A stretch of 64,000 nucleotides of DNA. Source: an uncultured delta proteobacterium (lineage in GTDB: Bacteria; Desulfobacterota; Binatia; HRBIN30; BPIQ01). Made by a program: the position numbers. Positions 28,301-31,300 of this stretch are shown here, in pieces. Numbering within the stretch: position 1 is the stretch's first letter; each line of letters opens with the position of its first letter. The DNA lies in the NCBI GenBank assembly GCA_963761335.1, contig CAVXGR010000012.1, positions 576,001 to 640,000 of the forward strand, written 5' to 3'.

Positions 28301-31300
28301 TCATGGCGGCCGATCCGAGAATGATCCTGCTGATGAGCTATTATCGCGATGCGGAGATCCGCGGCGCCTCGCTCCTGCTGCGCCTGATCTCCCATCTCCC
28401 CGACGGCGAGTCGCAGACCAAGCTCTCGCTCCACCTCGCCGACGAGACCCGGCACGCGTGGCTGTGGACCAAGAGGATCAACGATCTCGGCGCCTCGCCG
28501 CTTCGCGTCGAGGACGGCTATCAGTCGCGCATCGGCCTGAAGACCATCCCGCGCTCCGTGGTCGACATCCTCGCCCTCACCGTGGTCGTCGAGCAGCGCT
28601 CGCTCGATCGCTACATCGAGCACGCCGCCCGGCCGAACATCGACCCCGAGACCCTGGCGGTGCTGCGCGAGGTCTCGCAGGACGAGAAGTGGCACATCGC
28701 CTGGATCAAGAACAAGATGTACGAGATCGCCGCCGCCGAGAGCGGCCCGGAAGCCGGTGCCCAGCGCGCCGACGCCGCCATCGCCAAGTACGCGGAGATC
28801 GATCGCCAGGTGTACGCCTCCCTGCTGGAGAAGGAGCGCCAGACCTTCGGCGGGCATCTGGCTCACGAGACGCCGTCCTGAACTTCGCCGCCCCCGCAGC
28901 GCGCGACGCCGCCGGGCGCGCTGCAAGCCGCCGCGACAAGCTCGAGCTACTCGGATTTCGCCTGGCCCTGGGGGCCTTCCGCAGCCTGCCGCGCCGCACC
29001 GCTCTGCGTCTCGGGGCGCGGCTCGGCGAGATCGCCTGTCGGCTCGACGCCAAGGATCGCCGGGTCGCGCTCCTCAACCTGCGCATCGCCTTTCCAGAGC
29101 GCAGCGAGATCCAGCGCCGCGCCATCCTGAGCGCCAGCCTCCGCAACCTCGGACGCACCGCCGCCGAGATCTGCCACCTCGGCTCGCTCACCGCCGAGAC
29201 CCTGCCGCGCTACATTCGCTTCGCCGACCGCGAGCCCTGGGAACGCCTGCTGCGCGGCGCCGAGAGCACCGGCCTGCTGATCCTCACCGGGCACTTCGGC
29301 AACTGGGAGATGCTCGCCCATGCCCACGGCGTCCTCGGCCACCCGGTGAAACTCATATACCGCCCGATGCGCAACCCGCTGGTGGAAGCGGAGATCAGCC
29401 GCCTGCGCGGCGCCGCCGGAACCCGCGGCATTCCCAAGCGGGCGGCGGCCAAGGAGGCGATCCGCGCCATACGCAACAAGGAGATCGTCGTCATTCCGAT
29501 CGACCAGAACCAGAGCCTCGCCTTCGGCGGCTTCGTCGACTTCTTCGGCAAGCCGGCGTGCACGACCTTCGGTCTGGCCGGGCTGGCGCGCATCACCGGC
29601 GCCCCGGTGGTTCCGGCCTTCCTGGTGCGCGAGGGCGAGAGCGAGCGCCACCGGCTCGAGGTGCTGCCCCCGGTCGAGCTCATCGACAGCGGCGACCGCC
29701 GTGCCGACGCCATGGCCAACACGCAGCGCTACACGCGCATCTTCGAGGACATGGTGCGCCGCTTCCCCGAGCAGTGGATCTGGTTCCACAAGCGCTGGCG
29801 CACCCGCCCCCCCGGCGAGCCGCAGTTCTACTGAAGCAGAGCGATGAGAATGTAAAATGGAGAACCGGTGACCGGTGATGGAGAACTGGCAAACCGAGGT
29901 CTCATTGACCGGTTCTCCATCACCGGTCATCGGTTTTTCATTCTCCATTTCTCCTTCATCTTCCCCGGTTGCACCTTCGCCACATGTTCGCTATAGGACT
30001 TGGGTCCCCCGGGAGGCGCCATGTTTCTGACCAAACGCCAGAAGCAGCTCTACGATTACCTGTCCGAGTACATCACCGCCAACGGCTATGCGCCGACCTT
30101 TGAGGAGATCGGCCAGCATTTCGGGCTGTCCTCGCTGGCGACCATCCACAAGCACCTCACCAACCTCGAGCAGAAGGGCCTCATCCGGCGGCAGTGGAAC
30201 TTCAGCCGCGCCATCGAGCTGGTGCCGCAGCCGAAGAGTGCCGGCGCCGTCGAGCTGCCTCTTCTCGGCCAGGTCGCCGCCGGCCAGCCGATCGAGGCGA
30301 TCGAGACCGACGACACCATCGCCGTGCCCGATGACTTTGTGCGCGGCCAGCACACCTTCGTGCTGCGGGTGAAGGGATCCTCGATGATCGACGACGGCAT
30401 CTGGGACGGCGACTATATCATCGTCGAGGAGCGACAGGCGGCGGAGGACGGGGAGACGGCGGTGGTGCTGGTGAACGGCGAAGCGACCGTGAAGCGGCTC
30501 TATCGCGAGAAGGGCGGCCGCCTGCGGCTACAGCCGGCCAACGAGGCGATGGTCCCCATCGTGGTGCCCGCCAGAGACGTGAGCGTGCGCGGCGTGGTGG
30601 TGGCGGTGATGCGCAAGTACCGCGCCGGCCGCCACGCCTGATGTTCTCGCTGTACGCCCACATTCCCTACTGCCGCACCATCTGCCCTTACTGCGACTTC
30701 AACGTGCACCCGGCCCGGCGCATGCCGGAGGACGCCTACGTCGAGGCGCTGGTGGGCGAGCTCGAGCACGCGGCGCGCCGGCCGCCGTGGAGCGGTGCGG
30801 CGGTGCAGAGCATTTACCTTGGCGGCGGCACTCCCTCCCTGTTTGCAGCGGCGTCGATCGAGCGCCTGCTCTCCGCCGTGCGCGGCGCCTTTCCGATCGA
30901 GGCGCCGGCGGAGATCACCCTGGAGGCAAACCCGGGGACGGTGGATCGGGAAAAGCTCGAGGCGCTGCGGGCCGCGGGGGTGACCCGCCTCAGCCTCGGG
31001 GCGCAATCGCTCTCCGCCAGGTCCCTCGAGCAGCTCGGACGCGATCACTCTCCCGAGGAGGTGCCCGAGGCGCTGGGGGCGGCGCGTCAGGCCGGATTCG
31101 GCGACGTCAACCTCGATCTGATCTTCGCCGTTCCCGGACAGACACCCGCCGACTGGGAGTGCGACCTCGAGGCGGCCTGCGCCCTTTCTCCGGACCACGT
31201 CTCGGCGTACAACCTGACCTTCGAGGAAGGAACGGCCTTCTACGCGCGGCGCTCGCGCGGCGCCCTGCATGCGGTCGGCGAAGAGGCGGAGGAGGAGATG

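What a model noticed while it worked through the whole genome (the two positions that open the first line are those of the whole stretch)
29970..30641. A class-wide, undescribed LexA (SOS) box in Binatia: direct repeat TTCGC-N6-TTCGC
The promoter of lexA (g02137) holds a direct repeat TTCG-N7-TTCG (mostly TTCGC-N6-TTCGC) that is conserved across class Binatia and recurs before imuA-imuB-dnaE2 (C17:195777), a LexA-like peptidase lacking the DNA-binding domain (g02740, C15:98033) and the B12-dependent ribonucleotide reductase (C21:98589). It is the likely SOS box; recA, uvrA and uvrB promoters lack an exact copy.
Evidence so far: Found by spaced-repeat enrichment among repair promoters. 23 of 29 lexA loci from 27 Binatia genomes carry it within 70 nt of the start; of the 6 without, 3 are divergent LexA copies (<=43% identical) and 2 have one mismatch. 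10 of 10 imuA loci carry it. Only 28 of 5344 genes here have it within 120 nt upstream.
(Added by a program. Inside this text positions count along the whole contig: contig position 576,001 is position 1 of the stretch shown here. "Call 12" and the like, gene names such as g00115 and contig names such as C1 are that model's own, and its searches are not shown. The text may have been shortened before it was handed on; [...] marks where a part breaks off. The agent that wrote the report below was given it as the finding of a first reader that could run no searches.)

Follow-up and report, generated by a model that had tools for sequence, protein, structure and literature searches.

The report
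Direct-repeat LexA operator shared with Acidobacteria
A short tandem DNA repeat in the promoter of the DNA-damage repressor gene lexA is almost certainly the repressor's own docking site across these uncultured bacteria, but it is the same site that Acidobacteria-type LexA genes carry, so it extends a known kind of switch rather than revealing a new one.

Summary
The repeat is real: TTCGC-CACATG-TTCGC at 29976-29991, between the putative -35 and -10 of lexA. It is exact in 59 of 70 class lexA loci. It also precedes imuA (29/30), a LexA-like peptidase without DNA-binding domain (14/14 orthologs), PA0069 radical SAM (15/30) and recA (13/30); background is 0.3% of genes. It occurs in either orientation and vanishes where LexA has another recognition helix. 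It is very probably the LexA operator; binding is untested.

It is not special to Binatia. 73 of 79 Acidobacteria-type lexA loci carry the identical box in the same position, and Patescibacteria carry TTCGG-N6-TTCGG. Binatia and Acidobacteria-type LexAs form one clade. Boxes for Acidobacterium capsulatum and Patescibacteria are published (recalled; papers not held). The alphaproteobacterial framing GTTC-N7-GTTC fits none of these 149 promoters.

Corrections: nrdJ is not a conserved target, recA often is, and most of the 28 genome hits are chance. This scan noted the same box earlier in Acidiferrales, and variants in three other phyla. What remains fresh: the Binatia regulon, a LexA-and-box swap in one family, and the headless LexA paralog.

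The parts
29969..29974 (+). putative -35 hexamer TTGCAC of the lexA promoter
   Evidence: sequence; TTGACA-like hexamers sit 4-7 nt before the box in 34 of 65 Binatia sites. The strict scan found no promoter here, so this is inferred from homologs.
29976..29991 (+). candidate LexA operator TTCGC-CACATG-TTCGC, two half-sites (29976-29980, 29987-29991) with an 11-bp period, filling the 17-nt promoter spacer
29992..29997 (+). putative -10 hexamer TATAGG (weak)
   Evidence: sequence; TATAAT-like hexamers start 16-17 nt after the box start in 20 of 65 Binatia and 71 of 76 Acidobacteria-type sites
30011..30016 (+). Shine-Dalgarno-like GGGAGG
   Evidence: sequence
30021..30641 (+). lexA, 206 aa, with DNA-binding and S24 peptidase domains; Ala87-Gly88 cleavage site, Ser121 and Lys158 read from the sequence
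   Evidence: TIGR00498 197.8 bits, cut-off 110.95; PF01726 and PF00717
30132..30158 (+). recognition-helix stretch SLATIHKHL, shared with Acidobacteria-type LexA (SLATVHKH) and close to Patescibacteria and Gemmatimonadales LexA (SLATVHEH)
   Evidence: alignment; that this helix reads the DNA is established LexA knowledge (recalled)
30641..31780 (+). hemW, overlapping the lexA stop codon and probably co-transcribed
   Evidence: TIGR00539; a hemW match lies within 1.5 kb of lexA in 23 of 30 loci

Best explanation
TTCGC-N6-TTCGC is the operator of the Binatia LexA. A LexA dimer binds two head-to-tail TTCGC half-sites one helical turn apart and blocks sigma-70 polymerase, at lexA by filling the -35/-10 spacer. 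After DNA damage RecA filaments trigger self-cleavage at Ala87-Gly88, which releases a small, mutagenesis-centred regulon. In this genome that is lexA-hemW, imuA-imuB-dnaE2 and the headless LexA paralog; many relatives add recA and PA0069. The protein belongs to a clade shared with Acidobacteria and Gemmatimonadota, and the box comes with it. Shown: conservation, position, target set, covariation with the helix, clade. Inferred: binding, repression, induction, binding geometry.
For: lexA 59/70 exact. A matrix built from 64 other genomes' lexA sites ranks imuA first of 4954 promoters here and lexA ninth. imuA 29/30 with 25 exact, headless paralog 14/14, PA0069 15/30, recA 13/30 within 600 nt, against 14 of 4954 genes at the same cut-off. 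Orientation differs between targets: plus at lexA, minus at imuA, both at recA. Family f6 has an unrelated LexA (helix STNGVSDHL) with a palindrome CT(G/A)AAA-N4-TTTCAG at 3 of 3 lexA promoters and no repeat at 4 of 4 PA0069 promoters. Of 20 lexA loci from other classes of the phylum only 2 score 16 or more, one being the only one with the SVATVHKH helix. Acidobacteria-type loci 73/79 exact. Clade support 97/90.
Against: No binding or expression data. recA, uvrA and PA0069 have no site in this genome, so feedback through recA is missing here. One f17 genome has the cognate helix but only a degenerate site at lexA (L068). One f6 recA-operon region has a 17.3 site overlapping the pgpA start (L466). 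Genomes are related, so counts are not independent. The Acidobacteria-type loci are unnamed contigs, preselected by peptide patterns that include the helix and assigned by similarity and tree only.
Confidence: 0.92

Rival explanations
1. It is simply the alphaproteobacterial GTTC-N7-GTTC box read one base out of frame.
For: Same 11-bp period and TTC core; the window's site reads CTTC-N7-GTTC. GTTC-N7-GTTC is the cited alphaproteobacterial box (PMC3323433, PMC8565304 passages) and, as I recall, the one reported for A. capsulatum.
Against: 0 of 70 Binatia and 0 of 79 Acidobacteria-type promoters have an exact GTTC-N7-GTTC. G precedes both half-sites in 1 of 65 and 0 of 79, while the trailing GC is almost invariant. 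Two alphaproteobacterial lexA promoters show GTTC/GAAC repeats and not TTCG-N7-TTCG, have a different helix (SKSG[IV]HRL) and fall outside the clade.
Confidence: 0.04
2. The repeat is bound by another DNA-damage regulator, or is a promoter element for an alternative sigma factor or activator, as in LexA-independent damage promoters of mycobacteria (recalled).
For: At lexA it sits at a fixed offset from the -35 and -10 hexamers. Any regulator of the same genes would give the same target list.
Against: It works in both orientations, which a core promoter element cannot. Its presence follows the LexA helix inside the class (f6, f15), across the phylum and across phyla.
Confidence: 0.03
3. Chance or compositional artefact: pyrimidine-rich promoter spacers and purine-rich leaders in GC-rich genomes.
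For: It explains most of the 27-28 loose hits, and probably several minus-strand hits next to start codons, including part of the second site at the headless paralog and some nrdJ hits.
Against: Ten nearly invariant positions with one fixed spacer in 16 families and in Acidobacteria-type loci; 1 of 30 at uvrA and 0.28% of all genes.
Confidence: 0.01

Closest known systems
Acidobacterium capsulatum LexA box (Mazon et al. 2006, PMID 16549674; title seen in reference lists, paper not held; motif GTTC-N7-GTTC and lack of a recA site recalled)
   Same: Direct repeat with 11-bp period and TTC core. Binatia LexA and named Silvibacterium LexA are in one clade with the same helix. Acidobacteria-type promoters carry the identical TTCGC-N6-TTCGC in the same promoter slot.
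   Different: The recalled consensus fixes a G before TTC. My alignments fix GC after it and leave the G free. The A. capsulatum promoter itself was not available to check.
Patescibacteria LexA box (Sanchez-Osuna et al. 2017, PMID 28618189; cited for a direct repeat in PMC7739468 section 12; paper not held; its comparison with Acidobacteria recalled)
   Same: 15 of 30 lexA promoters from the phylum of a Patescibacteria-titled genome match TTCG[GC]-N6-TTCG[GC] with at most one mismatch, against 0.46 in shuffles, between -35 and -10; helix mostly S(L/V)ATVHEH.
   Different: Fifth base G, not C; these LexAs lie outside the 97/90 clade. The paper may already give the TTCGC form for Acidobacteria.
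Alphaproteobacterial SOS box GTTC-N7-GTTC (passages of PMC3323433 and PMC8565304)
   Same: Direct repeat, same period, TTC core.
   Different: Conserved G at -1 and no fixed GC at +4/+5; different helix; position relative to this clade unresolved.
Myxococcus xanthus box CTRHAMRYBYGTTCAGS (passage of PMC9705874)
   Same: Resembles the palindrome CT(G/A)AAA-N4-TTTCAG of Binatia family f6.
   Different: Imperfect palindrome, unrelated to the main Binatia box; f6 has TTTCAG for GTTCAG.
UmuD and the LexA C-terminal fragment (for the headless paralog at C15:97268-98005)
   Same: S24 domain with invariant Ala-Gly, Ser and Lys behind a short N-terminal arm; SOS-boxed promoter.
   Different: Closer to LexA than to UmuD (TIGR00498 113 bits, PRK10276 67 bits); no polymerase gene beside it in this genome; a conserved three-helix C-terminal domain with no Pfam, Atlas or PDB match.

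Membership tests
LexA/SOS operator | cognate protein is a full LexA (wHTH, Ala-Gly site, Ser-Lys dyad) | tested here: met
   residues read from the sequence
LexA/SOS operator | site in the lexA promoter, overlapping core promoter elements | tested here: met
   65 of 70 loci with at most 2 mismatches; geometry; promoter hexamers are predictions
LexA/SOS operator | recurs before translesion polymerase and other SOS genes | tested here: met
   imuA 29/30, PA0069 15/30, recA 13/30; uvrA only 1/30
LexA/SOS operator | bound specifically by LexA and derepressed on DNA damage | not testable with these tools
   needs EMSA, ChIP or expression data
Acidobacteria-type direct-repeat LexA box | same consensus and spacing as Acidobacteria lexA operators | tested here: met
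   73 of 79 exact, 6 with one mismatch; loci unnamed, 57-85% identical to Silvibacterium acidisoli LexA
Acidobacteria-type direct-repeat LexA box | LexA in the same clade with the same recognition helix | tested here: met
   40-row clade, support 97/90
Acidobacteria-type direct-repeat LexA box | matches the site mapped by EMSA in A. capsulatum | not testable with these tools
   paper not held; no A. capsulatum locus could be fetched
Alphaproteobacterial GTTC-N7-GTTC box | G conserved before both TTC | tested here: not met
   0 of 70 and 0 of 79 exact; both G in 1 of 65 and 0 of 79
Alphaproteobacterial GTTC-N7-GTTC box | direct repeat with 11-bp period | tested here: met
Patescibacteria direct-repeat box | half-site TTCGG | tested here: not met
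   C at half-site position 5 in 61 of 64 Binatia sites, in each half; the TTCGG form is from my own alignment
Gram-positive palindromic box GAAC-N4-GTTC | inverted repeat | tested here: not met
   the frequency matrix shows two same-strand half-sites

The most novel reading that the evidence does not exclude
One LexA clade spanning Binatia, Acidobacteria and Gemmatimonadota, with Patescibacteria nearby, reads TTCG(C/G)-N6-TTCG(C/G); the textbook equation of the Acidobacterium box with the alphaproteobacterial GTTC-N7-GTTC is a misframing from a single site. In Binatia this regulon has gained an undescribed member: a self-cleaving LexA paralog that lost its DNA-binding domain and gained a three-helix tail. 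It would act as an induced RecA-filament decoy or as a dominant-negative partner of LexA, tuning how long the SOS response lasts.
Probability: 0.25. Interest if true: 0.62.

Novelty: new member of a known kind. Interest (0 to 1): 0.36.

Why it matters
It gives a usable SOS box and regulon for an abundant uncultured class. It ties scattered phylum-level reports into one LexA clade with one box family. It supplies a natural experiment inside one class, where repressor and box were swapped together (family f6). How a two-fold symmetric LexA dimer binds a head-to-tail repeat is, to my knowledge, structurally unsolved, and this sharp ten-base consensus with natural C/G variants is a good substrate for that test. 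New LexA boxes are reported regularly (17 by 2021, PMC8565304 passage), so the surprise is modest. The headless paralog is the part most worth a bench test.

Tried and rejected
nrdJ as a conserved target: rejected. 4 of 30 loci score 16 or more, at different positions and strands. Here the site lies upstream of nrdJ's own TTGACA promoter, between nrdJ and divergent dciA. The nrdJ promoters I read by eye (8 of 30) show tandem elements that look like NrdR boxes (motif recalled; my regex hit only 2 of 30).

uvrA: 1 of 30. mraZ: 5 of 30, sporadic. A site at the pgpA-cinA-thpR-recA operon in this genome: none. The f6 palindrome as a wider regulon: only lexA promoters were convincing.

Reaching a named Acidobacteria genome failed: the genome-contig scan returned none and none appeared among the listed plasmid rows. 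The viral scan added one usable locus. No RNA holder was listed. The C-terminal domain of the headless paralog gave no Pfam, Atlas or Foldseek match. No complex prediction was sent, since a LexA/paralog pair would pass by likeness to solved LexA dimers.

Literature: ten searches. None returned the TTCGC or TTCGG consensus, a Binatia SOS study or the headless paralog. The three most relevant papers are not held, so absence from print is not shown.

Full report
Observation. The window holds lexA at 30021-30641 (TIGR00498; PF01726 and PF00717). Upstream lies TTGCAC-C-TTCGC-CACATG-TTCGC-TATAGG at 29969-29997. The repeat fills the 17-nt spacer of a putative sigma-70 promoter. The strict promoter scan did not call it, so the hexamers are inferred from homologs. 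The loose pattern alone is at chance level in the window (3 against 2.25). In the genome 27 of 4954 genes have it, against 12-22 for control spacers (gene calls are my own).

Conservation in the class. 118 of 121 class genomes have a LexA match. I read 70 loci: the 30 best and 40 chosen for family coverage. 59 have the exact TTCGC-N6-TTCGC within 150 nt, 4 have one mismatch, 2 have two, and 5 have none. The site occurs in 16 of 19 families. The five misses are three f6 LexAs at about 40% identity, one f15 match lacking its first 23 residues, and one f17 gene with a degenerate site. The matrix from 64 sites shows ten near-invariant positions and a pyrimidine-rich spacer. Spacer 7 occurs in 61 of 70, any other spacer in at most 2.

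Regulon. The matrix, built without this genome's site, ranks imuA 1st, nrdJ and dciA 2nd and 3rd (one shared site), lexA 9th and the headless paralog 24th of 4954 promoters. 14 of 4954 genes reach score 16 within 300 nt. Each set below is the 30 best loci of its search unless stated. imuA: 29 of 30, 25 exact, all on the minus strand; the miss is a partial locus without imuA. Headless paralog: 14 of 14 loci at 59% identity or more, 5 with a second inverted site near the ribosome-binding region; 4 of 4 more distant S24 genes lack it (18 loci picked). recA: 11 of 30 within 300 nt and 13 within 600 nt, including 5 of 5 f13 and 6 of 6 f9 genomes. Five further genomes have a site inside the pgpA-cinA-thpR-recA operon. 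PA0069-family radical SAM (NF033668) emerged from 68 pattern hits I inspected. It then scored 15 of 30, with one more exact site cut by my window edge, 4 loci not assessable, and none in this genome, f6 (0 of 4) or f15 (0 of 2). uvrA 1 of 30, nrdJ 4 of 30 at scattered positions, mraZ 5 of 30. The conserved core is therefore lexA, imuABC and the headless paralog, often with recA and PA0069. A radical SAM protein and translesion polymerases are also in the Balneolaeota regulon (PMC7739468, section 12 read).

The box follows the protein. f6 LexAs have the helix STNGVSDHL and sit across a 97/99 branch from the other Binatia LexAs. Holding all 27 Binatia rows together is rejected at p-AU 0.028, a test chosen after seeing the tree. 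Their promoters carry the palindrome CT(G/A)AAA-N4-TTTCAG in 3 of 3, which resembles the Myxococcus xanthus box (PMC9705874 passage). In G002 this lexA heads an imuB-dnaE2 cassette. Among 20 lexA loci from other classes of the phylum, two score 16 or more: the only one with an SVATVHKH helix (TTCGC-N6-TTTGC) and one with a TTCAC repeat and a different helix. One result points the other way: an f6 recA region has a 17.3 site at the pgpA start.

Not special to Binatia. An alignment of 19 unnamed representatives fetched 80 metagenome loci and one full-length viral-collection locus. Their LexAs are 57-85% identical to Silvibacterium acidisoli LexA, and the 10 placed in the tree group with it at 100/97. 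Two had too little upstream DNA. Of 79, 73 have the exact box, 6 have one mismatch and none has GTTC-N7-GTTC. The promoter geometry is the same. These contigs are unnamed and were preselected by helix patterns. In the phylum of a Patescibacteria-titled genome, 15 of 30 lexA promoters match TTCG[GC]-N6-TTCG[GC] with at most one mismatch, mostly TTCGG, against 0.46 in shuffles. In a 67-row tree, 24 Binatia rows, the Acidobacteria-type rows and a Gemmatimonadales LexA form a clade at 97/90; Patescibacteria and two Alphaproteobacteria lie outside it, unresolved.

Mechanism. By established LexA biology, the dimer occludes the promoter and RecA filaments trigger cleavage at Ala87-Gly88 by Ser121 and Lys158. 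The half-site read backwards, GCGAA, resembles the Gram-positive half-site (GAAC-N4-GTTC). The 11-bp period puts both half-sites on one face of the helix. I infer that one DNA-binding domain rotates on its linker to read them head to tail. Either orientation at different targets fits a repressor, not a promoter element or an RNA signal. Binding, repression and geometry are inferred.

Headless paralog (C15:97268-98005, minus, 245 aa). It has a short arm, an S24 domain with invariant Ala-Gly, Ser and Lys, a disordered linker and three helices. The tail matched 19 of 121 class genomes, 6 of them weak hits with no S24 match beside them in my check, and 127 database proteins; of the 120 listed, none has PF01726. 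No match was found for the tail in Pfam, the Atlas or PDB. My ranking, all inference: modulator of LexA or of RecA filaments 0.45, UmuD-like cleavage-activated partner of another protein 0.4, other 0.15.

Comparison with print. Seen: passages of PMC3323433, PMC8565304, PMC3789691 and PMC9705874; passages and section 12 of PMC7739468; a term search and part 100 of 118 of the PMC8565304 supplement, whose Table S2 lists A. capsulatum LexA as validated. Not held: Mazon 2006, Sanchez-Osuna 2017 and Erill 2016. Their content is recalled, and they or their supplements may already give this consensus. Ten searches found no TTCGC or TTCGG consensus and no Binatia SOS study. Earlier notes of this scan report the same box in Acidiferrales and variants in Gemmatimonadota, Krumholzibacteriota and CSSED10-310. 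They are unchecked leads and came after my own test.

Verdict. Real, very probably the LexA operator (0.92), and a new member of the known direct-repeat kind rather than a Binatia-specific box. Interest 0.36.

Noticed in passing
window 29836-29955: A 120-nt palindromic, REP- or MITE-like element (long hairpin, -68.5 kcal/mol) just upstream of the lexA promoter; 133 blastn pieces in the genome, both strands counted.
   Followed up: partly
G000:C15:97268-98047 (L524, L556): Headless LexA paralog with a conserved three-helix C-terminal domain of no known family; its promoter often has two boxes in inverted arrangement.
   Followed up: yes
L036, L037, L038 (family f6 lexA promoters): A different LexA with the palindrome CT(G/A)AAA-N4-TTTCAG: repressor and box swapped within the class.
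   Followed up: partly
L587, L601-L604, L410, L441, L459: The box recurs upstream of mraZ, at the head of the cell-division operon, in 5 of 30 loci plus three genomes found by pattern; not in this genome.
   Followed up: partly
L606 and L607 (other classes of the phylum): lexA promoters with other 11-bp-period repeats (TTCAC-N6-TTCAC, TTACGC-N5-TTACGC) and other helices: further variants of the repeat box.
   Followed up: no
G027 contigs C52, C238, C546, C606: The identical site TTCGCCTAATGTTCGC occurs four times, at least two near contig ends; possibly a LexA-boxed mobile element.
   Followed up: no
L512, L516, L519, L521, L522 (G056 contig ends): A repeated palindrome CTGAAATGAGTTTCAG at five contig ends, matching the f6 box; possibly an insertion-sequence end.
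   Followed up: no
L479 (Methylobacter plasmid NZ_CP091426.1): A gammaproteobacterial plasmid lexA, divergent from umuD, has a GTTC-N7-GTTC repeat in its promoter.
   Followed up: no
P0157, P0160, P0161, P0176 and others: Many LexA hits are 450-900 aa proteins with LexA at the N-terminus and long C-terminal fusions.
   Followed up: no
L429 (G027), L431 (G009), L460 (G015): Boxes directly upstream of a gene I read as a LigD-like ligase (recalled, not scanned) and of stand-alone dnaE2 genes.
   Followed up: no
G000:C17:147053-152548: A double-length uvrA (two UvrA modules in one frame of about 1900 aa), common across the class.
   Followed up: no
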